Source: a bacterium
GTDB lineage: Bacteria > Armatimonadota > Zipacnadia > Zipacnadales > Zipacnadaceae
Assembly: GCA_030615605.1 (NCBI GenBank)
Contig: JAUWYY010000005.1
Location: forward strand, 119,067 to 183,066
Direction of reading: 5' to 3'
DNA: 64,000 nucleotides
In this document: in pieces, positions 1 through 20,235 of the stretch
Numbering within the stretch: the first letter of the stretch is position 1
How the letters are laid out: every line of letters starts with the position of its first letter
Notes under the pieces: model-generated
The model's database searches: none
Told to the model about the DNA's origin: nothing
The model's input: the letters and a program-made list of their open reading frames with translations, nothing else
Made by a program: the position numbers and the translations under genes

Positions 1-1344
1 GTCAGGAACTATCCGGCTAAGGGTAGGGAGTCTAACTGGCTGAGCTCGACGCTGCGAGCGGTGGCGACGCTGTGCTTCGGTGAAATGGGCCGGCTGGTCA
101 ACGCCGGACAGAACGTAGGATTGGAAGAGCTGCTGAGCAAGAAGGTAGTCTTTGAGCTGGATGCGCTCACCCAGTCCGACAAGATATTCTTCATCGAGAC
201 GTTAGTGCTGTGGATCCACCACTACCGCCTGGCCCAGGGAGGAAGGGAGCAATTCAAGCACGCGATCATTATTGAAGAGGCTCATCACATTCTGAACCGC
301 GAGAAGCGATCGCTGACCGGCGGCGAGACAGTTATGGAGATCACCTTCCGAGAGATCAGGGAGTTGGGCGAGAGCATGGTGGTGCTCGACCAGCATCCCT
401 GCCAGATATCGCTGCCCGCACTGGGCAATACCTACTGCACTATCTGCATGAACCTAAAGCACAGAAAGGACACTAATGTCATGGCTAACTGCATGCTGCT
501 GGAAGACGAACAGAAGAGCTGTTTCGGCCAGCTGCAGTTGGGGGAGGCGGTAGTCCGACTGCAGGACCGGATCCGCAGCCCGTTTGTAATCAGGATGCCG
601 GAGTTTGAGGTGGAAAAAGGGGCCATCAGCGACGAAGCGATAAGCCACAGGATGGCGAGGTATTTCAAGCGATTTCAGTCAGCGCAAGACGCCCTACGAC
701 AGGTCTCCCCGATTTCACTGGCAGACGAACATATAGAGGGCAAACCGAATATATCCTATGAAGAATCACAACTGCTGATTGATATAGTGCGATATTCTTC
801 AAGCACAGTGGTAGCTAGATACTCAAGACTCAAGATGAATCGGCGCCGGGGCAATATCGTGCAAAAAGCTCTTATCGAAGCCGGACTAATCCGACCGCAA
901 GATGTCATCACGGGACAGGGCAGGATTGTGCTATTTGAGGTCACAAAAGCCGGCAGGCAAGTTCTGCAGGATTTGGGCCATCAGATACCAGACCACCGGA
1001 ACGGCATTGTGCACCGGTACTGGAAGAAGCGGATTGCCCGGCAGTATAGAAAGCAGGGGTATGAGGTAGAGATTGAAAAACCAATTGACGGCAGGCCGGA
1101 CATTACAGCAGTCAAAGGCCAACGGCGAATAGCAATTGAGATCGAGACCGGCAAGTCTGATGTTTTGGGCAATATTGAAGCTGATCTGGGCGCCGGCTTT
1201 GAGGTGGTCGTCTGCGTCGCCACCGACCGCCGCGCCCTGGACTACATCAGAAGCAAGATCGAGCAAAGCAACATCGACCGCGACAGGGTCGTGGTAGTAG
1301 CAGCCCAACGGCTTGAGCAGGACTCGCCGAAGGCCGGCCAGTAG
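1..1344 (+). CDS. HerA/FtsK-superfamily P-loop ATPase, C-terminal part (5'-partial at window edge), fused to winged-helix and PD-(D/E)xK-like nuclease domain; paralog of 16908..19091
   Basis: Reading frame is open to nt 1. Walker-B-like 'AIIIEEAHHIL' aligns with 'LTIVIEEAHL' of the 16908..19091 protein. C-terminus 'GRPDITAV..IAIEIETGKSD..GNIEADLGAGFEVVVCV' has a restriction-endonuclease-like D..ExK pattern and parallels the paralog's C-terminus. Confidence 0.6.
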   Translation, partial: VRNYPAKGRESNWLSSTLRAVATLCFGEMGRLVNAGQNVGLEELLSKKVVFELDALTQSDKIFFIETLVLWIHHYRLAQGGREQFKHAIIIEEAHHILNREKRSLTGGETVMEITFREIRELGESMVVLDQHPCQISLPALGNTYCTICMNLKHRKDTNVMANCMLLEDEQKSCFGQLQLGEAVVRLQDRIRSPFVIRMPEFEVEKGAISDEAISHRMARYFKRFQSAQDALRQVSPISLADEHIEGKPNISYEESQLLIDIVRYSSSTVVARYSRLKMNRRRGNIVQKALIEAGLIRPQDVITGQGRIVLFEVTKAGRQVLQDLGHQIPDHRNGIVHRYWKKRIARQYRKQGYEVEIEKPIDGRPDITAVKGQRRIAIEIETGKSDVLGNIEADLGAGFEVVVCVATDRRALDYIRSKIEQSNIDRDRVVVVAAQRLEQDSPKAGQ

Positions 1345-1801: not shown

Positions 1802-2890
1802 ATGATAGTACGAGACGTCAAGGCGTTAGCCCAAGTCAGCGAGCATATGTACGAACTGAGAGAGCAGATCACCGCCCGCGACCTGCTGCAGGTAGTCCGC
1901 TTCCTATCCAGCATCGGTAAGCGCACCTACAGCGGTTACTGGCGAGGCCAGGGCCGATTGCTGTATAGCTCAGCAGAGGAGCTAACCGAAGCTGAGTTCG
2001 GTCGACTGCTGTCCCAGATGGGACCTGGATATTCGAGTATCGATTACATCCTGAACAGTCGCTACCGGCGCGAAGAGCTGCTGACCAAGATAGCTTCGGC
2101 AACCAAGGTCAAGCGCACAGCAACCAAGCACGAGCTGCTGAGCCTGGCCGCCGCCGACCCGGATCTGTTGTTTGTCGTCTTCAAGCAGGACATCGTAGAG
2201 GCAGCTGCCGGGCAGCTGGCCGAATACCTGAAGAGCAGGGAGCAGCTAGCTTCGGACTGTGGCGAGTACCACCTCACTTTCGCCACCACGCAGCTCTACC
2301 ACCAGCCGCTTTCGGGCGGCGGGCAGTACCACTTCTGGGTCCTGGGCAAGGACAGAACGGTTGAGCCGGCAGACTACACCACCACAGGATATGGCTCGAA
2401 CCTCTTCCTCAACCTGGCGGACAGTGATCAGGAGCTGAGCCAGGCTATGGAAGAGCTGAGCGCGCACGACCCGGGTCCCTTTGAGTTGAATCCGTACTCC
2501 GAGTCGCTGCGTGTAGCAGAGCTTGTGCCGGACCGCCAGCCCATCCGCTACCAGAACGACATTGAGTGGCTGAGTGCCTACTTCGGTAGACGCCGCGCCA
2601 GCAAGTTCGAAACGTTTGCCTCCGGATTAGCCGAGCGAAGTGACCCACAGCTGGTGAATGAGTTAGGGGGCAGCAAATTCGTGGTGTGGTTTGGCAATCA
2701 GCCCGTCTACATGGGTCGGGCCTGCGACCAGGAGCTGTTCGAGAAGATAGCCGCGCACCTTAAGATTGAGTACCTGGGTAACTGCCTCATCTGCACTGTC
2801 ACCGAGAGCCAGACGACTGACGCGCTGTTGGCAATCTGGCAGCAGATAAGCTCAGGGCCCAGAGCTTTTGACCTGGTAAGACTACAGTGA
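1802..2890 (+). CDS. hypothetical protein (362 aa), upstream of MoxR/VWA pair
   Basis: Long ORF with coding-like composition, in a same-strand tight array with the next two genes. No recognisable motif. Confidence 0.5.
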   Translation: MIVRDVKALAQVSEHMYELREQITARDLLQVVRFLSSIGKRTYSGYWRGQGRLLYSSAEELTEAEFGRLLSQMGPGYSSIDYILNSRYRREELLTKIASATKVKRTATKHELLSLAAADPDLLFVVFKQDIVEAAAGQLAEYLKSREQLASDCGEYHLTFATTQLYHQPLSGGGQYHFWVLGKDRTVEPADYTTTGYGSNLFLNLADSDQELSQAMEELSAHDPGPFELNPYSESLRVAELVPDRQPIRYQNDIEWLSAYFGRRRASKFETFASGLAERSDPQLVNELGGSKFVVWFGNQPVYMGRACDQELFEKIAAHLKIEYLGNCLICTVTESQTTDALLAIWQQISSGPRAFDLVRLQ

Positions 2891-2903
2891 AAGGAGACCT
2901 AAA

Positions 2904-4247
2904 ATGTTAGAAGAGATTGTAGCTGGTTGGGATAGTATCGAGCCGGTATTCTTGGCTAACGTGGCACTGCGCAAGCCGTTTATGCTGCTGGGCCGGCACG
3001 GCGTGTGCAAGACTACCGTAGCCAAGCAGCTCAGTCGCATCTACGGCAGCGACGGCTTCCGGTTCTACGACTGCACCAAGGATGACCTGATCTCCATTGC
3101 CGGGATTCCTATCCCCGAGCAGCTGGCCCAGGGCAAGCTGGAGTTCTCTCGGCACGACCGCACCATCTGGGAAGCCCGAGTCATCGTGGTAGACGAGCTG
3201 ACCCGCGCCAACAAAGAGAACCAAAACCTATGGCTGGAGATTCTGGAAGAAAAAACCTGCTTCGGCAAGGAGCTGCACTACGAATGCTTGATCGCCACCA
3301 TGAACCCGGAGAGCTACGCCTCCACCTTCAAGTTGGACCAGGCGCTGCTGGACCGGTTCTATGCGGTGGTGCCCGTCCCCGAACTGCAGCAGGGCACGCC
3401 GGCGCAGGTCTACGAGCGCATAATCAGGATGAACCTGTCCGCCGCTCAATCAGAGCCGGACATCGAGGCCATCCGCCAGAGGCTGGCCGAGATCAGAAGC
3501 AACTACAAGAAGCTCACTACCAGCGAGGTAGTCGAGACAGTAGCTGAATACGTGGGCAACTTCATGGAGATCCTGCTCTCGCAGACCGACTGCTATGTCT
3601 CGCCGCGTAAGGCGGTGCAGTTGTCTGAAGAGATTCTCGCCCTGGGGGCCGGCTGCGGCAGTGACCTGGACAAGGCTGCCCAGCTCGCCCTGACTTATAC
3701 CCTCAGTGTCCCGCTGCAGATCGAGCCCGGATTGCTGCTACAGATCCACGAGAACATCAAGCCACTGCTGCTGGGGGCGCTGTTGCCGGAGGACAAGCTA
3801 AGATTGGAGCTGGGCAAGCTGTGCGAGTCCGACGAACTGCTCTGCTATCTGGAGCAGAAGGCCGCGGAAATTGCCGAACTGCTGCCCTACGACGAAGTAG
3901 AGACGCTCCTGGCTAAGCTCCAGAGTCAGCTGTCGGAGCATAGTCCCGCCGTATGGCGGCTGCAGCAAGTGCTGGCGGCGATGGAGGGCCACGAAGAGCA
4001 GCAGCGCCAGGCCGAGGGTAAGGCCGTACTCTACCTGATTGCCCGGCTGGAAGCCATCGTGGCGACGATCGCCGACCGCTGCATATACAGCCGCAGAGAC
4101 GTGGAGATGAAGGATAAGGTCAAAGCCTTCCTGGCTTTGCTAGAAAGCCTCCCCCTGCCGCAAGAGACGCTGGCCTTCCTGTTCAGCGAGGCGGCGGAGG
4201 ATCACAGTCGTGTCATCAGCTTCATTGAGAAAGGAGAGTTCCAATGA
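2904..4247 (+). CDS. MoxR-like AAA+ ATPase (AAA_5-type)
   Basis: Walker A 'LLGRHGVCKTTVAK', Walker B 'VIVVDELTRAN', 'ATMNPES' (MoxR 'ATQNP'-like). AGGAG RBS upstream. Stop overlaps next start (ATGA). Confidence 0.75.
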   Translation: MLEEIVAGWDSIEPVFLANVALRKPFMLLGRHGVCKTTVAKQLSRIYGSDGFRFYDCTKDDLISIAGIPIPEQLAQGKLEFSRHDRTIWEARVIVVDELTRANKENQNLWLEILEEKTCFGKELHYECLIATMNPESYASTFKLDQALLDRFYAVVPVPELQQGTPAQVYERIIRMNLSAAQSEPDIEAIRQRLAEIRSNYKKLTTSEVVETVAEYVGNFMEILLSQTDCYVSPRKAVQLSEEILALGAGCGSDLDKAAQLALTYTLSVPLQIEPGLLLQIHENIKPLLLGALLPEDKLRLELGKLCESDELLCYLEQKAAEIAELLPYDEVETLLAKLQSQLSEHSPAVWRLQQVLAAMEGHEEQQRQAEGKAVLYLIARLEAIVATIADRCIYSRRDVEMKDKVKAFLALLESLPLPQETLAFLFSEAAEDHSRVISFIEKGEFQ

Positions 4248-5575
4248 CAAGCCTCAACCACAAACTAACCCAGGCCTGCGCCGGGTTGGGAATCAGCCTG
4301 CTGGAGGTTTCCCGCCTCGTGCAGGTAAGTGACCTGCCCAATGTTGCCTGCTGGGGGTACGATACGCGGACCAAGCAGGACTACATTTTCGTCAACCCGC
4401 GGGTACTCCGGTTCAAAGTAGAGCAGATCCGGCTGATCTTGACCCACGAGATGCTCCACTATGCCGGCTACCAGCAGATTTCCGGTGCCAAAGACCAGGA
4501 TCTGGCCAATATCGCGCTGGATATCGCCGTCAACAAGGTACTGGCACTTGCCCACGAACCGGAGATGAAATCGCTGTGCCGCAGGATCTATCCGCAGGAA
4601 ACCACAGACGGGATCGTAGCGCTGGCCCGGCCTGACCTCACTCCCAGCCAAATAGACGACCCTGACATCAGAACCCTCTGGCAGCAGATATGGGAAGAAG
4701 ACGAGATTCCTTCGCCTGCTTCCCTCTACTACAAGCTGCAGTTCAGCGCCGAGCCGGTGGATCTCATCGTTTGGCCGTTCTGGGGAACCGGCGACGGTGA
4801 CATAGTACTGCGAGCAGGCGCTGGCAACGGTGAAGGAGACCAGCTCGCAGCAGCAGCCAAGGGCACCATCGAAAAGTTGATTGCCGAGGCACCATTCGGC
4901 GGCGGCTTCAGCCAGCAAGTCTCGGAGTTGTTCTCCCCGATCCTGGTGGGAAAACAGGTATGCGACACCGCCCAGGTAACTGACTTGCTGCGCCGGATCA
5001 GTGTCCGGCAGCAGGTCGAGCAAGGCGCCGCGAGGATCATCCGTGCCCTCGACGGCAGCTCCGGCCCGCAGCTCTACCCCTACAACCTGAGCCGGTTGGG
5101 GCTTATCTACATGGCCTGCGGCGTAAGCGGGACAGTCCCGCTGTACTGGAACAAGCAGCCTGTTCAGAGCAAGCCGCGGCTGGCCATCTACCTGGATACT
5201 TCGCCCAGTATGGAGCCGTTTCAGGAGATGGAAGTGTTCCTGGTCGATGAGCTCAGGGACCATTTCCCGGCCCAGGCCTTCGCCTTTGCCGGCAGCGTAA
5301 AGGAGATATCGCTCCAGCAGTTCGCTGACGGCAACTACGAGGCCGGCCACTCCACCAGCTTCGACGCGGTCATTGAACATCTGCTCGGTTCCGACTACGA
5401 AGCCGGCGTCGTCTTCACCGACGGCTACTCCAGCGTGAGCTCGTGCAATCAGCAGCACATCCGCCAAAACGGCAAGCGGCTCTTCGTCGTCTATTTCACC
5501 TCCCATCACAGCCAGCCGACCTCCGACCTCGACCAGGTCGCCGAGGCAACCGCGGTTATCAGGCAGTCACGCTAA
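4244..5575 (+). CDS. VWA-like domain protein with N-terminal putative metallopeptidase domain (DUF2201-like), partner of MoxR ATPase
   Basis: HExxH 'THEMLHY' in the N-terminal domain. C-terminal region resembles the vWA-like fold that usually partners MoxR ATPases. Translationally coupled to the upstream gene by a 4-nt overlap. Confidence 0.6.
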   Translation: MTSLNHKLTQACAGLGISLLEVSRLVQVSDLPNVACWGYDTRTKQDYIFVNPRVLRFKVEQIRLILTHEMLHYAGYQQISGAKDQDLANIALDIAVNKVLALAHEPEMKSLCRRIYPQETTDGIVALARPDLTPSQIDDPDIRTLWQQIWEEDEIPSPASLYYKLQFSAEPVDLIVWPFWGTGDGDIVLRAGAGNGEGDQLAAAAKGTIEKLIAEAPFGGGFSQQVSELFSPILVGKQVCDTAQVTDLLRRISVRQQVEQGAARIIRALDGSSGPQLYPYNLSRLGLIYMACGVSGTVPLYWNKQPVQSKPRLAIYLDTSPSMEPFQEMEVFLVDELRDHFPAQAFAFAGSVKEISLQQFADGNYEAGHSTSFDAVIEHLLGSDYEAGVVFTDGYSSVSSCNQQHIRQNGKRLFVVYFTSHHSQPTSDLDQVAEATAVIRQSR

Positions 5576-7254: not shown

Positions 7255-7291
7255 GAACCATGCCTGCTCGCTGGGGGCATTACCACTTCTT

Positions 7292-8545
7292 GTGCTAAAG
7301 AAGGGAAAAGTTTATATAGTAGTGGTGTCTGCCTTTTCCATGGCAATCGACATCCATCGGTTGGGGGAAGCTTACGAGAGGCGACTCAAGTCTCTCAAAG
7401 CCGACCGCACCCTCCTGACCCGGAACAAGCAGCTCATTCTCAAGTTTTTGGCAGATTGCGAACTCGGCAAAACCATCAAAGGCCGGGCTAAAAAGAAGAT
7501 TGGGCCCAGCCGATTACTCAAGTATAGCTCCGTGCTCAAGACGCTGTCCGGGTGGCTGGGCAGGCCCTTCGACCAGGTAACTCAAGCAGATATGGAGAGG
7601 CTGGTCGGGAATCTGGAAAAGGATGTCTACCAAACGAAAAGAGGTCGACCCTTCGCGGCCGAGACCAAGGTGGACTTCAAAAAGGCCCTTAAGAAATTCT
7701 ATAAGTGGCTGCTCGGTGATAACCGCAGGTATCCGGAAATGGTAGAGTGGATAGACACCTACAGCGAGATGAAAGAGATACCGGCTCTGACCAGAGAAGA
7801 GGTTAAGCGCCTGGCCAATCATTGCCGAGTGAGAGATAAGACCCTGGTTATGGTACTGTTCGACAGCGGAGCCCGAGCTTCCGAACTGCTCAGCATCAAG
7901 ATAGGCGACCTGACCAGAAAAGACGAATACTACATGATGCGGATCCGCCAGGAATATTCCAAGACCAAAGGCCGGACTATTAGTCTAGCGATGTGCACCG
8001 AACCCCTGGATGCCTGGCTGCAAGCCCATCCCGAGGGCAACAATCCGGAGGCCAGGCTGTTTCCTCTGAGTTACAATGCCTTGCGCATGCTGCTTAGCAG
8101 GCTGGGTAGAGAAGTACTGAACAAGAAAGTGACGCCTCATATTCTGCGCCACAGCTCGGCCACCTACTACTGCCACAAGCTGAATCAATACCAGCTTTGC
8201 TACCGGTACGGCTGGAGCATGGCCAGCAATCAGCCGCAGCGCTATATCGACAGAGAAGGTATAAGCGAAGAAGGCACGGCCGAGTTGGTCAAGGGCGACG
8301 AGATGGGTACGCTGAAGAAAGCCAACCAGCAATTGCAGGAGTCGCTTTCGTTGCTCAAGGAACAGCAGGACAAGGTAATGGCTACTCTCAGAAAGCGGGA
8401 AGCAGTTGACCCCATCTTGGATCGGGTATTCAGCAACAAGCGTATTGCTAGGATGATAAGATCCCAGTTGGCACAGGAGGAGATCGTTCAGCCGAGACCA
8501 CCAAAAGCAGCAACAGTCAGGAAACGTCGGTCAACAGCTGCTTGA
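7292..8545 (+). CDS. tyrosine-type site-specific recombinase/integrase
   Basis: C-terminal catalytic motifs 'HILRHSSATY' (HxxR) and 'RYGWS...QRYIDREG' (Tyr). N-terminal SAM-like domain. The real start may be the internal ATG (MAIDIHRL). Confidence 0.85.
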   Translation: MLKKGKVYIVVVSAFSMAIDIHRLGEAYERRLKSLKADRTLLTRNKQLILKFLADCELGKTIKGRAKKKIGPSRLLKYSSVLKTLSGWLGRPFDQVTQADMERLVGNLEKDVYQTKRGRPFAAETKVDFKKALKKFYKWLLGDNRRYPEMVEWIDTYSEMKEIPALTREEVKRLANHCRVRDKTLVMVLFDSGARASELLSIKIGDLTRKDEYYMMRIRQEYSKTKGRTISLAMCTEPLDAWLQAHPEGNNPEARLFPLSYNALRMLLSRLGREVLNKKVTPHILRHSSATYYCHKLNQYQLCYRYGWSMASNQPQRYIDREGISEEGTAELVKGDEMGTLKKANQQLQESLSLLKEQQDKVMATLRKREAVDPILDRVFSNKRIARMIRSQLAQEEIVQPRPPKAATVRKRRSTAA

Positions 8546-13384: not shown

Positions 13385-13621
13385 ATGAAAGACCTGCTCA
13401 TAGTAATACCCGGGGCTCAGGACGAGAACGAGTCCCGGAGAGAGATCACAATCAAGCCGGGCACTACCGCCGCAGACATCCTGCAGGCGTGTGGGCTGGA
13501 GGGATACTTCCTGTCCAAAGACGGCGGGAGCACGTTCTTCACTTCGGACGAGGATGTCTACAAGCAGGTTGAGTCCGGAGCCAAGCTGTTTGCGACCTCG
13601 GACGTAAAAGTCGGCTGGTAG
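13385..13621 (+). CDS. ubiquitin-like (beta-grasp) small protein, BilA-like; C-terminus ...KVGW
   Basis: 78 aa. RBS 'AAAGGGGGTGATCTACC-ATG'. Alternating hydrophobic beta-strand pattern (LLIVIPG / REITIKPG / KLFAT) consistent with a beta-grasp. First gene of the Ubl-E2-JAB-E1 array. Confidence 0.6.
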   Translation: MKDLLIVIPGAQDENESRREITIKPGTTAADILQACGLEGYFLSKDGGSTFFTSDEDVYKQVESGAKLFATSDVKVGW

Positions 13622-14063: not shown

Positions 14064-14066
14064 GAG

Positions 14067-14771
14067 ATGAGAACGCAGCGGTTGATTCTACCCAACAAAG
14101 AGATTATCACGTTTCGGCCTGGTCGTGGGGAACAGGCCGACCAAATCTGGCAGGAGTGGGCCAAGCCTCGTCGCGAGCGACGCCTGGAAACCGGTCAGCT
14201 GAGCTTGGACTTCTCGGGGGATCCGGGAGAGCCGTACCAGCGGGCCGAAAGCTCGGCACTTGAGCCACAGGAAGACATCTCTTACTACCTGGTCGGCTCG
14301 CGCTTCCTGACCTGGTGCAGCAAGCTGCTGCTGCGCAGCGCCGACGAAGGGCTGGTCTTCGTGAGCGGGCTGCAGCTAGAGCCGATACTGACACTGGATC
14401 AACTGGTCGGCTTCGGGTTGAAGCGGCAAAGCCTGACCGGAGCTGAGGCCGACCGCGGCTCGGCCCTACGGGCCCTGATCCAGCTCGACTGCTTTGGGCA
14501 CAAACTTCACGGTGTGTTTCACAGCCATCCGGGCGACGGCCCGATAGGCACGCTGCCTTCGGGCATCGACCACGAGACCCAGGCCCGCCTGGAGCGGGGC
14601 GGCTACCCCGTGATCGGGGGCATCTTCTCGCGCGACGGGTATGTGCGGTTCTTCTCTGAGAAAAACCAGTTTGAGGTGATTACCTATGGTACAGGCATCG
14701 AGTCAGCCGGTGAGAAGGTCTTCCGTGTCTGTAAAGACAGTAACCTACAAGACCAAGCCGCTCGTAGCTGA
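14067..14771 (+). CDS. JAB/MPN (JAMM) metallopeptidase, deubiquitinase-like, BilC-like
   Basis: JAMM zinc motif 'HGVFHSHPGDGPIGTLPSGIDHE' (HxH..S..D). Starts 4 nt after the E2-like stop. Confidence 0.8.
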   Translation: MRTQRLILPNKEIITFRPGRGEQADQIWQEWAKPRRERRLETGQLSLDFSGDPGEPYQRAESSALEPQEDISYYLVGSRFLTWCSKLLLRSADEGLVFVSGLQLEPILTLDQLVGFGLKRQSLTGAEADRGSALRALIQLDCFGHKLHGVFHSHPGDGPIGTLPSGIDHETQARLERGGYPVIGGIFSRDGYVRFFSEKNQFEVITYGTGIESAGEKVFRVCKDSNLQDQAARS

Positions 14772-15519
14772 GTGGGGCGAGGACAGATTCAGCGACCGCC
14801 AGGAGCGAGTGCCGGGGTTCGATCAGGACAGCCTGTCCGCTACCTCAGTGGCCTTGGTCGGGTGCGGGGGATTCGGCGGTGAGCTGGGCGAGGGGTTAGC
14901 GCGAAAGGGCGTCGGGAGCCTCTATTTGTTCGACGGGGATATTGTGGAGCTGTCCAACCTCAATCGCCAGCGCTTCTTCCGGGAGGACCTCTACCGCAAC
15001 AAGGCTGTTTGCGCAGCCCAGAATCTGGCTACAGAATGCTCTGGAGGCACTACGATCCAGGGCTTTGCCGCTACTTTCCAGGACATAGCCGAATCGCCCA
15101 GGATGCCGCCAGCCGACCTTATCGTGTGCGGCGTGGACAACAACGAAACGCGCGTCTACTGCGCCCGCTACGCCCTCAACAGGAGCCTACCGGTTGTGTT
15201 GCTGGGGACCGATGAAACCGCTGACTTTGGATACGTCTTTGTCCAGACGCCGGAGCAGGCTTGTTTCGGGTGCCTGTTTCCCCACGCTGTAGCAGAGCAG
15301 GCAGCGGATCCTGCTCCCTGCGCCAAGGTCGCGGCCGTGAAGGATGTTCTCAAGGCTCTCGCGGGTATTGCGCTCTATGCCGTTGACAGCTTGCTGATGC
15401 CCAGAAAACGCCACTGGAACTACCGACAAATCTCTCTGTCCGCAGAGCTGCCCGATGTGACCAGGACGATCCAGAAGCGGCCTGACTGCAAGCTGTGTGG
15501 TCGGTCAGAGGAGGGTTGA
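14686..15519 (+). CDS. E1-like ubiquitin-activating enzyme (ThiF/MoeB/HesA family), BilD-like
   Basis: 'VALVGCGGFGGELGEGLARKGVGSLYLFDGDIVELSNLNRQ' is the canonical ThiF/E1 nucleotide-binding signature. CxxC pairs 'CFGC' and 'CKLCG' (zinc site). The 5' end overlaps the JAB ORF and the true start is uncertain. Confidence 0.85.
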   Translation: MVQASSQPVRRSSVSVKTVTYKTKPLVAEWGEDRFSDRQERVPGFDQDSLSATSVALVGCGGFGGELGEGLARKGVGSLYLFDGDIVELSNLNRQRFFREDLYRNKAVCAAQNLATECSGGTTIQGFAATFQDIAESPRMPPADLIVCGVDNNETRVYCARYALNRSLPVVLLGTDETADFGYVFVQTPEQACFGCLFPHAVAEQAADPAPCAKVAAVKDVLKALAGIALYAVDSLLMPRKRHWNYRQISLSAELPDVTRTIQKRPDCKLCGRSEEG

Positions 15520-15523
15520 TGTC

Positions 15524-16058: not shown

Positions 16059-16424
16059 ATGCGACCAGACGAAATAGATCATTTTCCGCTGCCCCAGCCT
16101 CGGGCGAGGCAGATGCCACCCCGGGAGGCGACGCCCCGTGTCGTCGGGATGAGCCAGGTACCGAGACCGCATTATCCGGCCCCGCGCACCAACTGGGCAC
16201 GAACCATCGTTCGTTGGTTAGCTATGACAGCGGCGCTGGCCGCCATGGCCACCATCGCTGCAATCGTGGCATTATTCTTTATGGCGCTGTTCGCCGATCC
16301 TCTAACCTTCCTGAAGGCGTTGTGGAAGATACCGCTGAGTGTGATAACGGTTAGTATAGCTCTGCTGGTGGAGGTACCGCTAGCGCAATGTGTGTGGCAC
16401 TTGTGGCGGACCAGATATCGGTAG
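16059..16424 (+). CDS. small two-TM membrane protein, copy B
   Basis: RBS 'AAGGAGATAAGTATC-ATG'. 'FADPLTFLKALWKIPLSVITVSIALLVEVPLAQCVWHLWRTRYR' parallels copy A. Confidence 0.65.
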   Translation: MRPDEIDHFPLPQPRARQMPPREATPRVVGMSQVPRPHYPAPRTNWARTIVRWLAMTAALAAMATIAAIVALFFMALFADPLTFLKALWKIPLSVITVSIALLVEVPLAQCVWHLWRTRYR

Positions 16425-16440
16425 AAAGCGAGGAGATAGA

Positions 16441-16873
16441 CATGGAGATAGGAGACCTGCGCGAAGTTCTGTTGAATCAAGGCATAACCGCCGAGGACCA
16501 GGTAATCGTCGAAGGCCAGACCCAACCGCTGGTCCAATCGGCTGAGCAAGCTGTCTTCACACCCGAAGGCTATGTCCGCAGGCGCGTCATGCGGGTAACC
16601 CAGTGCGCCGGTTGTCTGCGCCTGTTTCATCAAGCAGGCGCTGCCGGGTCGGTATGCGTTGACTGTGGCAGGACCCTGTGCCTTACGTGTAGCCAGACGG
16701 TCTGTGCGGATCCGTACTGCCGAAAGCCCGTCTGCCCGGACGACTATACTCTGTGGTGGGATGGGCCTTTGTGCCGCTGGCATAACTGGCTGCGGGTCAG
16801 AGGCTACATCATCCGGGCCCTGGTGATGGCCTCATGTCTCGGCGGATTGGTCTGCTTACTGTTCAACAGCTAG
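16441..16873 (+). CDS. Cys-rich (zinc-ribbon-like) protein with C-terminal TM anchor
   Basis: RBS 'GAGGAGATAGAC-ATG'. CxxC..CxxC..CxxC..C..C cluster (CAGC, CVDC, CLTC, C..PYC, CPDD) and a terminal hydrophobic helix. The N-terminus 'MEIGDLREV' is duplicated as a 38-aa ORF at 15927. Confidence 0.55.
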
Positions 16874-16907
16874 TGGCGCCATAGTGACTTACAAAGGAGA
16901 GATCGCA

Positions 16908-19091
16908 ATGAACAGACACGAACAGGACTACACTCTGGAAGAGCGCTTGGCCAGGTCCGGCCTCAAAGGCCATCCCGGGGCCACCGCGGCCGCGGCCGCA
17001 GCCGCCCTTTCCGGGGATGAGAATCTGCTCAATCGGCTGGTGCAGTTGCTTGATGTCCACGCGGTCATGAACATGGCCGAAGACCACGCGTTCGTGCTGA
17101 ATCAGCCCGAGCCTGAAGACCTCCCCGCTGAGGGCATACCGTGGGTCTGGACTCTGCGCAACGACGGGTCGGCCTTCCCCTGCCCGTTGCCCACCGAGCA
17201 AGACTGGAATGCCTGCCTGCTGGGCACCACCGGTGTGGGGAAAAGCTACGGCGTCAAACACCTGGCCACCCAGCTGCACTTGGCCGGGGAAAGTGTGTGG
17301 ATCTTCGACGTGGAGAACGAGCACGCTGACGTGGCCGTGCAATTTCCTGCAGAAGAGTTCTTAGTGATCGACTACCAGCAGCTCAAGCGCAACATCTTCC
17401 AGCCAGTGCCCGGGGAAAGCCCCAAGGAGGCTATCCACCGCTGCCGCTCGGTGTGGCGGGAGTCGTGCTTCTTGCGCGACGGCAGCGAGAACATGCTGGG
17501 GGACATTCTGTGGCGGGAATACGAGAATCGTGGCGTGTTCCGCGGCAGTCGCAACTACCTCACGCTCGCCGACGTCTGCACCGACCTGACTCGCAAGAAA
17601 TACCGCACCCGCTCGCGAGAGTTCGCGTACTGGGAGACCTTGATGAACCGGACAACCTCGCTGGAGCAGCTTTTGGGTGAGCCTTATGATTGTGTGGAAG
17701 GCTTTGATCTGAGTGAGCTGGTCGGCAAGTCGATGGTCCTGCGCCTGCGGGGCATGGCTGACCAGCTCCGGCTGTTTTTCCTCAACGACCTTATCACCGC
17801 TGCTCTGACCTGCCAGGCACTGCGTCCGGGCAACACCCTGACCATAGTCATTGAAGAAGCCCACCTGACCTACTCTGCGTGGGAGCGGCGCAGTGACCTG
17901 GCCGAGCCGTGCATTCTGCAGGCTGCTCGCCGCGCCCGCAAGCGAGACACACGGCTGGTTTGGGTGGATCAGGTGCCGGCAGCGATGCCGCCTCAAGTAC
18001 TGGCCACCACCCGGGCCAAGACCATCTTTCGCCTCGAAGACGGCGATTCGAAGCGCACGGTGGCCCGCAGTTGCTCGCTGACGCGGGAGCAGGAGGAGTA
18101 CTTGAGCGAGATTCCCGAGAGATGTGCCGTGCAATTCCTGGGCGGTCTGTATCCCAAGGCGTTTCTGGTCAGGTTTCCCGAGCTCAATTTCATCCAGCCT
18201 ACGGAGGCGGAATTGGCCCGCAGGATGCGCCTCGTTCTGGCAGGCCTTCGGTACATGCCCAGACCGCAGCAGCCCAGCCCACCAACTCAGAAAGTGGTGG
18301 CGAAAACCACCCCAAAGGTGGAAGTCAAGCGCCAGCCTGCTCAGAAGGAGCCCACAGCATCCTCACTCACACGGGATGCCATTGACTACCTGATTGAGAT
18401 TGCTAAACATCCTTTTGAGACGGTAACGGAACGAGATGCCCGGCTGGGTCACAGTGGCTACATGGGTGCACGGCTGAGGGATGAACTGGCAGAACGCGGA
18501 CTGGTCGAGCCCTGCCGTGTCAATACCGGCAGGAGGGGTGGAACCATCGTGCTCTATCAGCCGACAGCCACCGGGTGGCGACACCTGAAGTCGGTGCTGC
18601 GCGTGCAAGTAGACCGCCCTCGCGGCAAAGGCGGCCCGGAACATCAGTACTGGCAGCACCAGGCAGCCGCTTGGTGCCGCAGTCGTTTTCCTGACAGCGA
18701 GATAGTGATAGAAGATCATCGCCTGGGCAAGGCAGTGGACGTGGCAGTGTACCTGCCTGACAGCCGCAAGATCGCCATGGAGATTGCCTTGGGTACGGCC
18801 GAGAAGCAACTGTTTGAAGTCGGCAACATCGAGGCTAACCTGGGTGTGGGCTATGACCAGGTGATCGTGGCGGCACGCACCGAGAAGGACCTCGACCGGA
18901 TCAGACGGACAGTGGTCCAGGAGCTGGGCGAGGATGCTGCTAGCAGAATCGAGTGGCGGCGGTTGCGTGAATTCCTGGAACAATCCGATAACGGCGCCGC
19001 AGAAGTCTTAAGTGATCAGCAGTCCCTGGATCTTTCGACACCTACCACACCAAAGGTGATAGTGAAAACGAAAAATGAGTCTGGCCTGTAG
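16908..19091 (+). CDS. HerA/FtsK-superfamily P-loop ATPase fused to winged-helix and PD-(D/E)xK-like nuclease domain
   Basis: RBS 'AAAGGAGAGATCGCA-ATG'. Walker A 'LLGTTGVGKSYG', Walker B 'LTIVIEEAHL'. C-terminus 'AVDVAVYLPDSRKIAMEIALGTAEK..GNIEANLGVGYDQVIVA' has a nuclease-like fold. Located 70 nt upstream of an integrase. Confidence 0.75.
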   Translation: MNRHEQDYTLEERLARSGLKGHPGATAAAAAAALSGDENLLNRLVQLLDVHAVMNMAEDHAFVLNQPEPEDLPAEGIPWVWTLRNDGSAFPCPLPTEQDWNACLLGTTGVGKSYGVKHLATQLHLAGESVWIFDVENEHADVAVQFPAEEFLVIDYQQLKRNIFQPVPGESPKEAIHRCRSVWRESCFLRDGSENMLGDILWREYENRGVFRGSRNYLTLADVCTDLTRKKYRTRSREFAYWETLMNRTTSLEQLLGEPYDCVEGFDLSELVGKSMVLRLRGMADQLRLFFLNDLITAALTCQALRPGNTLTIVIEEAHLTYSAWERRSDLAEPCILQAARRARKRDTRLVWVDQVPAAMPPQVLATTRAKTIFRLEDGDSKRTVARSCSLTREQEEYLSEIPERCAVQFLGGLYPKAFLVRFPELNFIQPTEAELARRMRLVLAGLRYMPRPQQPSPPTQKVVAKTTPKVEVKRQPAQKEPTASSLTRDAIDYLIEIAKHPFETVTERDARLGHSGYMGARLRDELAERGLVEPCRVNTGRRGGTIVLYQPTATGWRHLKSVLRVQVDRPRGKGGPEHQYWQHQAAAWCRSRFPDSEIVIEDHRLGKAVDVAVYLPDSRKIAMEIALGTAEKQLFEVGNIEANLGVGYDQVIVAARTEKDLDRIRRTVVQELGEDAASRIEWRRLREFLEQSDNGAAEVLSDQQSLDLSTPTTPKVIVKTKNESGL

Positions 19092-19161
19092 GCAACCGCA
19101 TATAGATCCGGCGAACATCATGTTCTGACCCCCCCGCCGGACACCAGTTAGGGATAGACAC

Positions 19162-20235
19162 ATGAGAAGCACTGTAGCTGAACATCAAAGCCAGGCAACG
19201 ACAGTAAGCCCCGGTTGCCAGTTGGGAGCGGCCGTTGTCGCTGACAACGAACAGGGAATCCACAATTTCCAGTACTTGGTGGATTCTTTTCTGACCTATC
19301 TTGAGCAGTACCGCCAAGCTTCTCCGCTTACCCTACAAGCCTATGGCCGGGATCTGAAGCGGCTGCATCGCTTCCTGGTGTCTCATGGCCTAGCGACAAA
19401 TGTCCGCAACATTACCAGCCGCGAGCTGCAGGCCTTTGCTGTCTCGATGAGTGGACTGGCTCCAGCCACGATCACACGGGCACTGAATGCTACCAGTTCG
19501 TTATTCAGTTATTTGATAAGAAGCGGTCTGGCAGAGTCCAACCCGGTCGACAGCGTGATCAAGCCCAAGCAGAGGCCTAGTCTGCCCCAGGGGCCAACCG
19601 TTCAGCAATGCCATCGGTTGGTCCAGGCCACTAGCGATATTCGCGACCGAGTTATGATCATGCTGCTGTTGACTGCGGGCCTGCGCCGCTCTGAGCTGCT
19701 GAATTCGCGAACCAGCGATTTGACAGCCGATCTGAGCCGCATTCGGATTATGGGCAAAGGCGGCAAGGAACGGGTAATACCTCTGCCGGAACAGACCCGG
19801 CGAATACTTGAGCAATACCTGGACGAGAGAGAATCAACCTCAGAGCTTCTCTTCCCTAACACGCGCGCCAAGCGCATGGGCAACTCGACGTTCTATCGAA
19901 TCTTCAAGCGCATTGTGAAGAGAGCCGGGCTTGACCAAGCAGGCATCACCGCCCATAGTCTGCGTCACGCCTATGCCACAATGCTGCTGCACTCGGCAGT
20001 GGATGTGAAGACAGTCCAAGAGCTGCTGGGCCATGCTGACCTGAGCACTACTTCACGCTACCTGCACTCGGATGACGCCACCAAGCAGGCTGCCGCTGAG
20101 GCGCTGCCTGACTTGCTCAGCGCGAATGAGGGGCAGGACACACTGAGCGAGAGCCATAGCGAGGAGGCCACGGCCGTTCACCCTAAGAAATTCCCCGCCA
20201 AGAACCGAATCAAATCAGTCTTCAAACGACTATAG
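19162..20235 (+). CDS. tyrosine recombinase, XerC/XerD-like integrase
   Basis: Core-binding domain plus catalytic 'LRRSE', 'HSLRHAYAT', 'LLGHADLSTTSRYLH'. Confidence 0.85.
   Translation: MRSTVAEHQSQATTVSPGCQLGAAVVADNEQGIHNFQYLVDSFLTYLEQYRQASPLTLQAYGRDLKRLHRFLVSHGLATNVRNITSRELQAFAVSMSGLAPATITRALNATSSLFSYLIRSGLAESNPVDSVIKPKQRPSLPQGPTVQQCHRLVQATSDIRDRVMIMLLLTAGLRRSELLNSRTSDLTADLSRIRIMGKGGKERVIPLPEQTRRILEQYLDERESTSELLFPNTRAKRMGNSTFYRIFKRIVKRAGLDQAGITAHSLRHAYATMLLHSAVDVKTVQELLGHADLSTTSRYLHSDDATKQAAAEALPDLLSANEGQDTLSESHSEEATAVHPKKFPAKNRIKSVFKRL

What the first reader, a model, noticed from the sequence alone, without database searches (positions are those of the whole stretch)
16908..19091. Paralogous HerA/FtsK-like ATPase-wHTH-nuclease fusions (second copy at 1-1344), one immediately upstream of an integrase
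Both proteins share Walker-B 'hhhIEEAH' and a PD-(D/E)xK-like terminal module ('IA(I/M)EI..G..(K)...GNIEA(D/N)LG.G(F/Y)'), with a predicted winged helix in between. An ATPase-nuclease next to a tyrosine integrase could be a replication or mobilisation protein of an integrative element. Equally, it could be a stand-alone nuclease-based defence or anti-defence factor. The duplication suggests two related elements integrated in tandem.
Basis: partly seen in the sequence, partly recalled or inferred. Interest (0 to 1): 0.6.

Follow-up and report, generated by a model that had tools for sequence, protein, structure and literature searches.

The report
HerA-like ATPase-nuclease pair, integrative island
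Two distantly related genes each encode a HerA-type DNA motor fused to a DNA-binding domain and a restriction-enzyme-like domain; both are conserved core genes of a ~24 kb integrase-bounded island of a kind that recurs in many uncultivated microbes and has not been characterised.

Summary
Window 16908-19091 (727 aa) and 1-1344 (the 3' two-thirds of a 679-aa gene) are true paralogs: 26% identity over 419 aa, E 3e-27. Both are HerA-clade P-loop ATPases followed by a winged helix and an alpha-beta-beta-beta-alpha-beta PD-(D/E)xK-fold domain (AlphaFold pLDDT 83.5 and 91.7; Foldseek hits to HerA and to restriction-type nucleases).

The family is large: 800 clusters at 50% identity score E<=1e-30. 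It carries only generic labels such as "DUF87 domain-containing protein".

Each subfamily has its own upstream partner. The copy-2 type has a coiled-coil protein (71 of 84 genes). The copy-1 type has a Cys-rich zinc-ribbon protein (13 of 13 loci). Copy-1-type genes always lie just upstream of a recombinase, either tyrosine or large serine (13 of 13). They often follow a ThiF/E1 cassette, and in one lineage a HORMA-TRIP13 module.

The two types co-occur within 20 kb in 6 of 9 informative loci, with or without an integrase between them. The "two tandem elements" reading is therefore only partly supported.

The most likely mechanism is a regulated DNA translocase-nuclease. Its role, conflict system or the island's own mobilisation, is unresolved. 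The closest described kind is the computationally predicted "HerA/FtsK capture" systems.

The parts
16908..19091 (+). Copy 1: HerA-clade ATPase, wHTH and PD-(D/E)xK-fold fusion, 727 aa (an alternative GTG start lies at 16884)
   Evidence: ORF. P0001 is 100% identical and 727 aa. Pfam DUF87/HerA central domain E 4.8e-6, above its cutoff. AlphaFold2 mean pLDDT 83.5. Foldseek against HerA 4d2i E 1.5e-12.
17136..18242 (+). ATPase core of copy 1 (aa 77-445). Walker A is at 17223-17246 and Walker B 'IVIEEAH' is at 17844-17864. A four-helix insert spans aa 172-260.
   Evidence: G109, G111, K112, E317, R341, R344 and Q355 are invariant in 113 sequences. Secondary structure. Coordinates.
18372..18596 (+). 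Winged helix-turn-helix of copy 1 (aa 489-563)
   Evidence: Three helices plus a beta-hairpin with high pLDDT. Weak profile hits to wHTH proteins: eS25 E 0.046, MarR-like Lin2960 E 0.18. JGI labels two relatives as MarR-family regulators.
18636..18980 (+). PD-(D/E)xK-fold domain of copy 1 (aa 577-691). H579, E602, D611, E625 and N640 are invariant; the third motif position is Ala (E-I-A).
   Evidence: Domain model pLDDT 91.7 with alpha-beta-beta-beta-alpha-beta topology. Foldseek top hits are PaqCI, the Can2 nuclease domain (TMq 0.66), NucS/EndoMS, SfsA, Card1 and EcoT38I. Alignments.
1..1344 (+). Copy 2: the C-terminal 447 codons of a 679-aa paralog (P0006). Walker B is at 268-285, the wHTH at 757-975 and the PD-(D/E)xK-fold domain at 1006-1320, with motif D599...E612-I-E614.
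   Evidence: Translation. Full-length protein and its locus L004. Coordinates. Weak Pfam CoiA_nuc hit E 0.061.
16388..16873 (+). Cys-rich zinc-ribbon partner of copy 1 with a C-terminal hydrophobic anchor. The true start is probably the ATG at 16442, by alignment with its homolog in L001.
   Evidence: Homologs lie upstream of the ATPase in 13 of 13 copy-1-type loci that have upstream sequence. The C-terminal hydrophobic stretch is read directly from the sequence.
16059..16424 (+). Small membrane protein ending in 'HLWRTRYR'. A tandem paralog lies at 15497-15907.
   Evidence: Sequences. A homolog (111 aa) sits at the same position in the sister island L001.
14686..15519 (+). ThiF/E1-like adenylyltransferase
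   Evidence: Pfam ThiF E 1.4e-29. PADLOC E1-E2 profiles down to E 1.5e-15. E1 genes recur upstream of copy-1-type ATPases in L001, L020, L095, L098, L101 and L102.
14067..14771 (+). JAB/JAMM-like peptidase
   Evidence: Weak Pfam Prok-JAB hit E 0.037, below cutoff. The motif 'HSHPGDGPIGTLPSGID' (HxH...SxxD) is read from the sequence. Sequence search of solved structures found nothing.
13385..13621 (+). Candidate ubiquitin-like protein, 78 aa, ending '...VKVGW'
   Evidence: Position and size only. No Pfham hit was found; Pfam returned nothing. This is an inference by analogy with the ThiS-like 74-aa genes ending 'IDGAIC' / 'IEGASA' next to ThiF in related islands.
19162..20235 (+). Tyrosine integrase at the right-hand end of the island
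   Evidence: Pfam Phage_integrase E 2e-43 plus SAM-like N-terminal domains. Nucleotide similarity to the sister MAG stops at position 20234.
7292..8545 (+). Second tyrosine integrase, lying between the two ATPase modules
   Evidence: It clusters with the integrases. It shares 25% identity with the 19162 integrase over the catalytic domain, E 3e-8.
1802..5575 (+). A 362-aa protein of unknown function, a MoxR-type AAA+ ATPase and a vWA/metallopeptidase-like protein, directly downstream of copy 2
   Evidence: Pfam AAA_5 5e-10, AAA_3 and bpMoxR; weak, below-cutoff DUF2201_N (E 0.0018) and VWA_CoxE (E 0.0048) hits. The same trio or pair follows or precedes copy-2-type genes in about 11 loci.

Best explanation
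What it is. Both ORFs belong to one large family that carries only generic labels. Each is a HerA-clade P-loop motor with a four-helix insert, fused at its C-terminus to a winged helix and a PD-(D/E)xK-fold domain. They are core genes of an island of about 24 kb. The island runs from about 3.8 kb upstream of the window start to the integrase stop codon at 20235.

Island architecture. It recurs in unrelated uncultivated bacteria:
- a coiled-coil partner followed by the copy-2-type ATPase;
- variable cargo;
- an E1 cassette, with or without Ubl and JAB;
- a zinc-ribbon partner followed by the copy-1-type ATPase;
- a recombinase.

Proposed mechanism (inferred, not shown). The ATPase forms a HerA-like hexameric ring. 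The wHTH directs loading onto dsDNA. ATP hydrolysis pumps the DNA and presents it to the C-terminal nuclease-fold domains. The dedicated partner protein, and Ubl conjugation and deconjugation (HORMA-TRIP13 in one lineage), gate the activity.

Most likely role. An element-borne conflict machine that restricts invading or competing DNA, of the 'HerA/FtsK capture' kind predicted by comparative genomics.

Shown here: paralogy, domain folds, motif conservation, partner genes, synteny and multi-copy islands. Inferred: oligomer state, translocation, cleavage, regulation and biological role.
For: Motor.
- Walker A and B, two arginines (R341, R344) and a glutamine (Q355) are invariant in 113 homologs. 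The two arginines and the glutamine fit the Arg-finger and sensor-1 Gln signature that PMC10853773 gives for HerA/FtsK ATPases.
- Foldseek against HerA, the DndH C-domain, Sir2-HerA, DUF4297-HerA and TdpAB gives E 1e-12 to 1e-8.
- Profile against PDB gives HerA E 1.5e-17.

Nuclease fold.
- Domain model pLDDT 91.7.
- Foldseek top hits are all restriction-type nucleases.
- H, E, D, E and N positions are invariant.

Partners.
- The coiled-coil gene lies upstream of 71 of 84 family ATPase genes in the loci of the genome scan, including some second, divergent ATPases.
- The zinc-ribbon gene lies upstream in 13 of 13 copy-1-type loci.

Island.
- Similarity to the sister MAG spans L004:1382 to window 20234, and both flanks are unrelated.
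- A recombinase lies downstream of all 13 copy-1-type genes that have downstream sequence: 7 tyrosine and 6 serine.
- One MAG holds three island copies at 88-91% nucleotide identity over at least 11 kb.
- Neighbours include ArdC, Replic_Relax, DUF2958, Xis-type HTH_17 and XRE regulators.

Conflict role.
- All solved HerA-plus-effector complexes that the model hits are anti-phage or repair machines.
- The ATPase core matches the PADLOC mad8 profile at E 1e-13 to 6e-16.
- The recurrent neighbours are the regulators known from CBASS types II and III: E1/JAB, and TRIP13 (E 3e-45) with HORMA (E 2e-16).
- Other neighbours are MoxR-vWA pairs and type I HsdR.
- Copy 1 and its partner diverge fast: 58% amino-acid identity between sister islands, against 93% for copy 2.
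- PMC10853773 predicts Orc/CDC6, HerA/FtsK with a four-helix insert, REase and wHTH neighbourhoods as anti-invader systems. An Orc/Cdc6-like AAA+ gene lies within 10 kb in 27 of 86 loci.
Against: - There is no experimental datum for any member of the family.
- PADLOC and NCBIfam place neither protein in a defined defence system.
- The copy-1 type lacks the third catalytic residue of the nuclease motif. One sub-branch also replaces E602 with Gln. Planctomycete relatives lack the nuclease domain altogether. Effector domains of immune systems are usually strictly conserved.
- The fixed position next to recombinases of two unrelated families, and minimal 5-gene units (zinc-ribbon partner, ATPase, an unknown protein, Xis, integrase in L095; similar units in L090 and L096), fit an element life-cycle function at least as well.
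- The HORMA-TRIP13 link rests on one lineage (L088 and L103).
- Loci were selected by the presence of the ATPase, so its constancy across islands is not independent evidence.
Confidence: 0.45

Rival explanations
1. The ATPases are the island's own DNA-handling motors. After excision by the adjacent recombinase, the wHTH recognises a site on the element. The ring then pumps or unwinds the element's dsDNA for cell-to-cell transfer, replication or segregation. This is analogous to TraB of actinomycete integrative conjugative elements or to FtsK with its gamma domain. The zinc-ribbon/TM partner and the small membrane proteins would tether the motor to the membrane.
For: - Copy-1-type genes always lie directly upstream of the recombinase, whichever family it belongs to: 13 of 13.
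- Minimal units carry little else.
- The partner here has a C-terminal membrane anchor, and two small membrane proteins precede it.
- A wHTH follows the motor, as in FtsK-gamma and TraB (the comparison is from my own knowledge).
- There are weak P-loop_TraG and CedD similarities.
- Makarova et al. 2014 list HerA-like arCOG00280 among the commonest genes of archaeal integrated elements, as a possible DNA-pumping ATPase (PMC4158269).
- The nuclease motif is degenerate in the copy-1 type.
Against: - By profile the motor is HerA, not FtsK, TraB, VirB4 or VirD4.
- The ATPase itself has no transmembrane segment, and many partner homologs lack the anchor.
- No relaxase or T4SS gene was seen among the neighbours scanned.
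- Only distant relatives (22-31% identity, ATPase core only) occur on 72,556 plasmids.
- The E1/JAB, HORMA-TRIP13 and MoxR-vWA neighbours have no known role in DNA transfer.
Confidence: 0.3
2. Structural reading by the first reader: the window holds two separate, related integrative elements inserted side by side. Element A is the coiled-coil partner, ATPase-2, MoxR, vWA and so on up to the integrase at 7292-8545. Element B is TPR, Ubl, JAB, E1, the zinc-ribbon partner, ATPase-1 and the integrase at 19162-20235.
For: - Each ATPase module is followed on the same strand by its own integrase.
- A-like modules with a downstream integrase and no ATPase-1 within 10 kb exist (for example L009).
- B-like modules occur without ATPase-2 within 10 kb upstream (L095, L098, L101).
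- Divergence from the sister MAG differs sharply between the two halves: 90% against 65-78% nucleotide identity.
Against: - The two ATPase types lie together with no integrase between them in L015, L100 and L102.
- They co-occur within about 20 kb in 6 of 9 informative copy-1-type loci, far more than expected for independent elements.
- The two integrases share only 25% identity, so a shared attachment site is unlikely.
- No direct repeats of 13 bp or more flank either half.
- The whole 24 kb block is syntenic in the sister MAG, with both outer flanks different.
Confidence: 0.35
3. The genes are the genome-packaging ATPase or terminase-like enzyme of a cryptic, membrane-containing prophage. 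Such viruses package DNA with FtsK/HerA-superfamily ATPases.
For: - The islands are small, carry many short ORFs, some with membrane segments, and have a recombinase at one end.
- Foldseek against viral models returns HerA-like and packaging ATPases at E 3e-12 to 1e-3.
Against: - A scan of 2.9 million viral contigs found only two distant (26% identity) relatives.
- No capsid, portal or tail family appeared in any Pfam scan of the neighbours.
- The viral structural hits cover only the ATPase core (TMq at most 0.40) and none shares the full architecture.
- Packaging ATPases of such viruses are about 200-260 aa (my own knowledge).
Confidence: 0.07
4. The genes are host HerA-NurA-type double-strand-break repair enzymes with the nuclease fused to the helicase.
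For: The best sequence and fold match is archaeal HerA.
Against: - The phyletic distribution is patchy, with several copies per genome inside integrase-bounded islands.
- No NurA, Mre11 or Rad50 appeared among the neighbours scanned.
- The N-terminal region is helical rather than a HAS barrel.
Confidence: 0.03

Closest known systems
'HerA/FtsK capture' neighbourhoods coupling Orc/CDC6 AAA+, REase, HerA/FtsK and wHTH (computational prediction, NAR 2024, PMC10853773)
   Same: The domain inventory is the same: a HerA/FtsK motor (one described version has an inserted four-helix bundle, as in this model at aa 172-260), a wHTH and a restriction-endonuclease-fold domain. They lie in mobile neighbourhoods that show features of both mobile elements and defence. 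An Orc/Cdc6-like AAA+ gene lies within 10 kb of 27 of 86 relatives.
   Different: - No Orc/CDC6 gene accompanies either copy in this window.
- The Orc/Cdc6-like neighbours elsewhere are 318-423 aa. In the one scanned with Pfam, the AAA+ core and the Cdc6 C-terminal wing leave no room for the inserted inactive REase that the paper calls invariable.
- The paper's section 22 does not mention the coiled-coil or zinc-ribbon partners, the E1/Ubl/JAB or HORMA-TRIP13 links, or the pairing of two paralogs. Its figure and supplement were not seen.
HerA-effector anti-phage complexes (Sir2-HerA/Nezha, DUF4297-HerA, TdpAB) and archaeal HerA-NurA
   Same: A HerA-clade hexameric motor working with a nuclease or other effector. 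These are the best structural and profile matches.
   Different: - Here the nuclease-fold domain is fused in cis through a wHTH, not supplied by a separate Sir2, DUF4297, TdpB or NurA subunit.
- PADLOC HerA profiles match only weakly (E 2.5e-6 to 7e-3) in the two window proteins.
- No such partner gene is adjacent.
- The N-terminus is helical rather than a HAS barrel.
TraB of actinomycete integrative conjugative elements and FtsK with its gamma wHTH (my own knowledge)
   Same: A ring translocase followed by a sequence-reading wHTH, encoded next to int/xis on a small integrative element.
   Different: The ATPase clade is different: HerA E 1.5e-17 against EccC/FtsK-type E 0.012. The ATPase has no N-terminal membrane domain. 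It carries an extra nuclease-fold domain.
CBASS type II (Cap2 E1-E2 / Cap3 JAB) and type III (HORMA / TRIP13) regulatory modules; Bil Ubl systems
   Same: The same accessory modules sit upstream of the copy-1-type ATPase. ThiF/E1 with JAB and a candidate Ubl are found here. TRIP13 and HORMA are found in L088.
   Different: No CD-NTase or cyclic-nucleotide effector was found in the operon. No E2 was recognised. The presumed regulated component is a HerA-type ATPase.
mad8 of the MADS defence operon (PADLOC PDLC04140)
   Same: The ATPase core matches at E 1.2e-13 for copy 1 and 6e-16 for the L088 relative.
   Different: The match covers only the 314-position ATPase profile. No other mad gene was found among the neighbours scanned. 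mad8, at 314 profile positions, is too short to include the wHTH and nuclease domains.

Membership tests
FtsK/HerA superfamily of P-loop ATPases | Walker A, Walker B, an arginine finger before core strand 4 and a sensor-1 glutamine at its end (as stated in PMC10853773) | tested here: met
   G109, G111, K112, E317, R341, R344 and Q355 are invariant in 113 sequences. Foldseek against HerA, VirB4 and DndH-C gives E about 1e-12 to 2e-11.
HerA proper (HerA-NurA) | N-terminal HAS beta-barrel | tested here: not met
   The model shows helices at residues 3-64 and only three short strands (77-105) before Walker A.
HerA proper (HerA-NurA) | Adjacent NurA nuclease (and Mre11/Rad50) genes | tested here: not met
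   None appeared in the Pfam scans of window neighbours or in the precomputed Pfam lists of related loci.
HerA proper (HerA-NurA) | Closest ATPase clade by sequence profile | tested here: met
   Profile of 113 sequences against PDB: HerA 4d2i E 1.5e-17, ahead of DptH 8e-5, VirB4 1e-3 and EccC 0.012.
PD-(D/E)xK (restriction-endonuclease-like) nucleases | Alpha-beta-beta-beta-alpha-beta core fold | tested here: met
PD-(D/E)xK (restriction-endonuclease-like) nucleases | Catalytic D...(D/E)xK triad | tested here: inconclusive
   D611 and E625 are invariant. The third position is Glu in the copy-2 type (at least 90% conserved) and Ala, Leu, Cys, Met or Val in the copy-1 type. No lysine is conserved there. 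From my own knowledge, ExE is known to be active in BamHI. The Ex(A/L/C/M/V) variant of the copy-1 type is of unknown competence.
Orc/CDC6-HerA/FtsK-REase-wHTH 'capture' systems (PMC10853773) | HerA/FtsK, wHTH and active REase domains in one neighbourhood | tested here: met
   All three lie in one polypeptide. REase activity is itself unproven.
Orc/CDC6-HerA/FtsK-REase-wHTH 'capture' systems (PMC10853773) | Orc/CDC6 AAA+ with an inactive REase inserted between the AAA+ core and the C-terminal wHTH | tested here: not met
   No Orc/CDC6 gene lies next to either window copy. In related loci the Orc/Cdc6-like genes are 318-423 aa. The L032 example has its AAA region at 46-190 and Cdc6_C at 269-352, leaving no insert-sized gap.
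Sir2-HerA / DUF4297-HerA defence systems | Adjacent Sir2 or DUF4297 effector gene and a match to the systems' HerA profiles | tested here: not met
   PADLOC HerA profiles match at only E 2.5e-6 to 7e-3, and no effector gene was found.
Type IV secretion ATPases (VirB4 / VirD4-TraG) | Profile membership and neighbouring T4SS or relaxase genes | tested here: not met
   P-loop_TraG and TrwB hits fall below their cutoffs. NCBIfam VirB4/TraC hits score 15-24 bits against cutoffs of 325-590. No T4SS gene appeared in the neighbours scanned.
Integrative mobile genetic element (island) | Bounded block with a recombinase at one end, different flanks in different genomes, and multiple copies | tested here: met
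   The syntenic block runs from L004:1382 to window 20234 with unrelated flanks. A recombinase follows copy-1-type genes in 13 of 13 loci. One MAG holds three copies at 88-91% identity.
Integrative mobile genetic element (island) | Flanking attachment-site direct repeats or a tRNA target | tested here: not met
   No shared exact repeat of 13 bp or more was found. The repeat finder reported nothing relevant. No tRNA was found in the window or in 10 related loci.

The most novel reading that the evidence does not exclude
A previously undescribed class of island-borne immune or conflict systems. Two paralogous HerA-type translocase-nucleases, each with its own adaptor (coiled-coil or zinc-ribbon), act together. 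The signalling modules known from CBASS, either Ubl-E1-JAB or HORMA-TRIP13, would control them directly, with no cyclic-nucleotide synthase in between.
Probability: 0.3. Interest if true: 0.75.

Novelty: new variant of a known kind. Interest (0 to 1): 0.55.

Why it matters
The family is large. A profile of the copy-1 type finds 800 clusters at 50% identity with E<=1e-30 and 4,826 with E<=1e-10. It spans many bacterial and several archaeal phyla, yet it carries only generic labels such as 'DUF87 domain-containing protein'.

If the conflict reading is right, ubiquitin-like conjugation and HORMA-TRIP13 signalling would regulate effectors other than the CBASS cyclases. That would add a cis-fused motor-nuclease to the HerA-based immune machines.

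If the mobilisation reading is right, it defines a widespread class of integrative elements in uncultivated lineages that move without a relaxase or T4SS.

Either way, the partner genes and the recombinase adjacency found here give concrete, testable units of 5 to 12 genes.

Tried and rejected
- Attachment sites. I looked for exact direct repeats of 12 bp or more between the sequence right of the 19162 integrase and everything to its left, and around the inner integrase. Only 12-mers at chance level turned up. The repeat finder on 11600-21500 gave nothing meaningful. No tRNA genes were found.
- Known defence systems. PADLOC and NCBIfam gave no assignment beyond weak HerA, mad8 and CedD similarity of the ATPase core.
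- Plasmids. tblastn against 72,556 plasmids gave only distant DUF87 proteins.
- Viruses. The IMG/VR scan gave two distant hits. The BFVD fold search gave only generic ATPases.
- E2 for the Ubl cassette. The 123-aa ORF at 13692-14063 has no Pfam or PDB match. The JAB ORF has no PDB sequence match.
- MADS. The bioRxiv preprint on MADS (10.1101/2023.03.30.534895, dated 2023-03-30) gave no information on what mad8 is.
- My own earlier conclusion. At one point I wrote in the notebook that the two copies are definitely not tandem elements. I withdrew this as too strong once I saw that each module also occurs alone.


Full report
OBSERVATION. The ORF 16884-19091 (+) is 735 aa from a GTG. The 100%-identical database protein P0001 is 727 aa, so the ATG at 16908 is the likely start. 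Window 1-1344 is one open frame of 447 codons cut by the window edge. Its full-length form is P0006, 679 aa, recovered with its upstream DNA as locus L004. The two proteins align over 419 residues at 26% identity, E 3e-27. By segment the identity is 23% in the ATPase core, 33% in the wHTH and 31% in the C-terminal domain. A tyrosine integrase (Pfam E 2e-43) starts 70 nt downstream of copy 1.

DOMAINS: THE MOTOR. An AlphaFold2 model of copy 1, built on an alignment of 113 family members, has mean pLDDT 83.5. It shows:
- an N-terminal helical region (residues 3-64);
- a P-loop core (about 77-445) with four helices inserted at 172-260;
- a disordered linker (459-480);
- a three-helix plus hairpin wHTH (489-563);
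- an alpha-beta-beta-beta-alpha-beta domain (577-691).

Foldseek against the PDB returns HerA (4d2i, E 1.5e-12), the DndH C-domain, VirB4, Sir2-HerA, DUF4297-HerA and TdpAB. A sequence profile of the family ranks HerA first (E 1.5e-17). The DndH homolog DptH follows at 8e-5, VirB4 at 1e-3 and EccC at 0.012. The motor is therefore HerA-clade, not FtsK or VirB4. Walker A and B, two arginines and a glutamine are invariant. The arginines and glutamine fit the Arg-finger and sensor-1 Gln signature quoted for HerA/FtsK ATPases in PMC10853773.

DOMAINS: THE C-TERMINAL DOMAIN. Modelled on its own, it reaches pLDDT 91.7. Its best PDB matches are restriction-type nucleases: PaqCI, the Can2 nuclease domain (TMq 0.66), NucS/EndoMS, SfsA, Card1, EcoT38I and PspGI. 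The E-values are modest (1e-3 to 8e-2) but the probabilities are 0.9-1.0. H579, E602, D611, E625 and N640 are invariant in 113 sequences. The motif is D...E-x-E in the copy-2 type and D...E-x-(A/L/C/M/V) in the copy-1 type. No lysine is conserved. The fold is established. Catalytic competence is plausible for copy 2 and uncertain for copy 1.

SIZE AND SPREAD OF THE FAMILY. The word-indexed search found 1,540 relatives of copy 2 but only four close relatives of copy 1. An exhaustive HMMER search with a copy-1-type profile found 12,595 representatives at E<=1e-3 and 800 at E<=1e-30. Most of the best 150 listed are 600-750 aa and match the profile nearly end to end. A scan of one genome per species found 207 relatives. 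They lie in Planctomycetota, Chloroflexota, Ignavibacteria, Aminicenantes, Hydrogenedentota and others. Archaeal carriers include Hodarchaeota, Methanomassiliicoccales, Nanoarchaeia and Bathyarchaeota. Several genomes carry more than one copy. Source names are generic: DUF87, ATP-binding protein, HerA-like ATPase, 'Holliday junction resolvase-like' and MarR.

PARTNER GENES. I called ORFs in 86 loci and clustered them. A short coiled-coil protein (135-270 aa, C-terminal motif [CS]W[RKS]DT) lies immediately upstream of the copy-2-type gene. An HMM of it hits the upstream region of 71 of 84 ATPase genes that have at least 600 bp of upstream sequence. The copy-1 type lacks this protein. It is preceded instead by a Cys-rich zinc-ribbon protein, found in 13 of 13 copy-1-type loci with upstream sequence. 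That protein has a C-terminal membrane anchor in the window, L001, L015, L020, L088 and L091, but not in the other loci.

ISLAND CONTEXT IN THIS WINDOW. Compared with a sister MAG (contig JAUVXR010000001), nucleotide similarity runs from L004:1382, which is 3.8 kb left of the window, to window 20234. That endpoint falls at the integrase stop codon. Identity along the block is mosaic:
- 90% over window 1-6618;
- 80% over 7245-10393;
- 70% over 11043-11703;
- 65% over the copy-1 ATPase core;
- 78% over its wHTH, nuclease-fold domain and the integrase.

Both outer flanks are unrelated. The block is about 24 kb. In order it contains:
1. the coiled-coil partner and copy 2;
2. a 362-aa protein, a MoxR AAA+ and a vWA-like protein;
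3. a first integrase (7292-8545);
4. an HTH protein, a TPR protein and others;
5. a candidate Ubl (13385-13621);
6. a 123-aa ORF;
7. a JAB-like protein (14067-14771, JAMM-type motif HSHP...SGID);
8. a ThiF/E1 (14686-15519, Pfam E 1.4e-29);
9. two paralogous small membrane proteins;
10. the zinc-ribbon/TM partner;
11. copy 1;
12. the second integrase.

These assignments rest.

THE SAME LAYOUT ELSEWHERE.
- L102: DUF8104-like coiled-coil gene, DUF87 ATPase (676 aa), an XRE regulator, ThiF (480 aa), a 133-aa gene, small ORFs, a copy-1-type ATPase (725 aa), a 54-aa gene, then a gene at the contig end that was not annotated. By position and length (534 aa) it corresponds to the large serine recombinases of L100 and L101.
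- L100: the same layout without ThiF, ending next to dnaN.
- L101: ThiF up to the serine recombinase, ending next to smpB.
- The Chloroflexia locus L015: a copy-2-type pair, then 9 kb further on the zinc-ribbon/TM gene, a copy-1-type ATPase (30% identity to copy 1, E 1e-91) and a serine recombinase.
- A metagenome scan added L088-L099.

Across all copy-1-type loci with downstream sequence, a recombinase follows in 13 of 13. In 12 of these it lies within about 2 kb. Seven are tyrosine recombinases and six are serine recombinases. Minimal versions consist of the zinc-ribbon gene, the ATPase, one unknown gene, Xis (HTH_17) and the integrase (L095; similar units in L090 and L096). ThiF/E1 precedes the ATPase in the window, L001, L020, L095, L098, L101 and L102. 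In L088 the operon instead begins with TRIP13 (PADLOC E 3e-45) and HORMA (E 2e-16), with no recognisable cyclase. This is one lineage only. The related contig L103 shows a TRIP13-like AAA gene, the same TPR gene and a copy-2-type pair nearby.

A copy-2-type gene lies within about 20 kb of the copy-1-type gene in 6 of 9 loci with enough sequence.

OTHER NEIGHBOURS OF THE COPY-2 TYPE. They include:
- Orc1/Cdc6-like AAA+ genes (27 loci);
- tyrosine integrases (25 loci);
- ThiF (12 loci);
- MoxR/vWA or CobS/CobT-like pairs (about 15 loci);
- Replic_Relax (8), DUF2958 (7), ArdC (6), ThiS-like Ubl (6), serine recombinase (5) and HsdR (5).

One MAG (CAXXSM) carries three islands that share at least 11 kb at 88-91% nucleotide identity. 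Planctomycete versions lack the nuclease-fold domain on the ATPase (580 aa) and often have a separate small nuclease-like gene nearby. The family is close to absent from viral contigs, and only distant relatives occur on plasmids.

INTERPRETATION: WHAT IS SECURE. Both genes encode HerA-clade motors fused to a wHTH and a restriction-endonuclease-fold domain. Each has a dedicated partner. Both are conserved core genes of integrase-bounded islands.

INTERPRETATION: WHAT IS INFERRED. The proposed mechanism is a hexameric ring that loads via the wHTH and pumps dsDNA to the nuclease-fold domains, gated by the partner and by Ubl or HORMA signalling.

For the biological role I favour a conflict function (0.45). 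The neighbours are the regulatory modules of CBASS types II and III plus MoxR-vWA and restriction genes. All characterised HerA-plus-effector complexes are immune or repair machines. Copy 1 and its partner evolve fast between sister islands. The closest published description (PMC10853773) predicts Orc/CDC6, HerA/FtsK, REase and wHTH neighbourhoods as anti-invader 'HerA/FtsK capture' systems.

The main rival (0.30) is that these are the island's own DNA-mobilisation motors. This is supported by the invariant position next to recombinases of two families, the minimal 5-gene units, the membrane-anchored partner and the degenerate nuclease motif of the copy-1 type. I could not separate the two readings with the tools available.

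TANDEM ELEMENTS OR ONE ISLAND. In this window each module has its own integrase, the two integrases share only 25% identity, and each module occurs alone elsewhere. That fits two adjacent elements. The recurrent pairing, sometimes with no integrase in between, fits a composite or functionally linked pair. No att repeats were found to settle the question.

NOVELTY. The domain combination has a computational precedent. The specific family, its two partner types, the paralog pairing, the recombinase adjacency and the E1/Ubl/JAB or HORMA-TRIP13 linkage were not found in the searchable literature. I rate it a new variant of a known kind, of moderate interest.

Noticed in passing
window 13385-15519: A possible complete ubiquitin-like conjugation cassette lies upstream of copy 1. 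It comprises a 78-aa candidate Ubl ending 'VKVGW', a 123-aa ORF containing 'HAPCF' (a possible E2-like protein, with no Pfam or PDB match), a JAB-like protein with an intact HxH...SxxD motif, and a ThiF/E1. No E2 was recognised.
   Followed up: partly
window 15497-16873: A two-gene unit is tandemly duplicated. Small membrane proteins ending in 'CLWRTRHQ' and 'HLWRTRYR' lie at 15497-15907 and 16059-16424. Each is followed by an ORF opening with 'MEIGDIRQIRLHGGITAQQ' or 'MEIGDLREVLLNQGITAED'. The first such ORF (15873-16043) is truncated to 56 aa. The second continues into the zinc-ribbon/TM partner.
   Followed up: partly
window 1802-5575: A 362-aa protein of unknown function, a MoxR-type AAA+ ATPase and a protein with weak SprT/DUF2201-like metallopeptidase and vWA matches lie directly downstream of copy 2. 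Related MoxR-vWA sets, plus a 460-aa SAP-domain protein, flank copy-2-type genes in about 11 other loci.
   Followed up: partly
window 21396-25383: Just outside the island there is a RiPP-like gene set: an NTP_transf_5 nucleotidyltransferase (E 2e-38), two PqqD-domain proteins (one with a weak, below-cutoff Peptidase_S24 match), and a radical SAM/SPASM enzyme. Homologs of two of these genes also lie near the copy-1-type ATPase in L088.
   Followed up: partly
window 22625-23026 (- strand): An IS3-family transposase OrfA fragment (HTH_Tnp_1, E 2.5e-18) lies 2.4 kb right of the island's integrase.
   Followed up: partly
window 33895-34797 and 62951-63712: The window holds further integrase genes. 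The first is Phage_integrase E 3.8e-41. The second only clustered with integrases in my BLAST grouping. The window therefore carries at least four recombinase genes.
   Followed up: partly
L031, L032, L053, L055, L059, L064 (Planctomycetota and one archaeal MAG): A conserved cassette recurs in these loci. Its order is DUF2958, a ThiS-like Ubl ending in Gly plus 3 residues, a 350-380-aa protein with an 'HPHV...D' motif and a long Cys-rich tail, ThiF, a coiled-coil protein, an HTH protein, an Orc1/Cdc6-like AAA+ gene, then a HerA-like ATPase that lacks the nuclease-fold domain. A separate 140-aa nuclease-like gene is often nearby.
   Followed up: partly
L049, L059, L064, L018, L068, L069, L081: A third, more divergent HerA-like ATPase type (about 20-24% identity) lies in the same islands. 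It has an N-terminal hydrophobic segment in several cases and a C-terminal wHTH but no nuclease-fold domain. Islands with two different HerA-like ATPases therefore appear to be common.
   Followed up: no
L095 12368-12610: An 81-aa IBR (half-RING) zinc-ribbon protein (Pfam E 1.4e-6) lies between the copy-1-type ATPase and Xis/Int, in an island that also has ThiF. This hints that the Cys-rich proteins of these islands could be E3-like.
   Followed up: no
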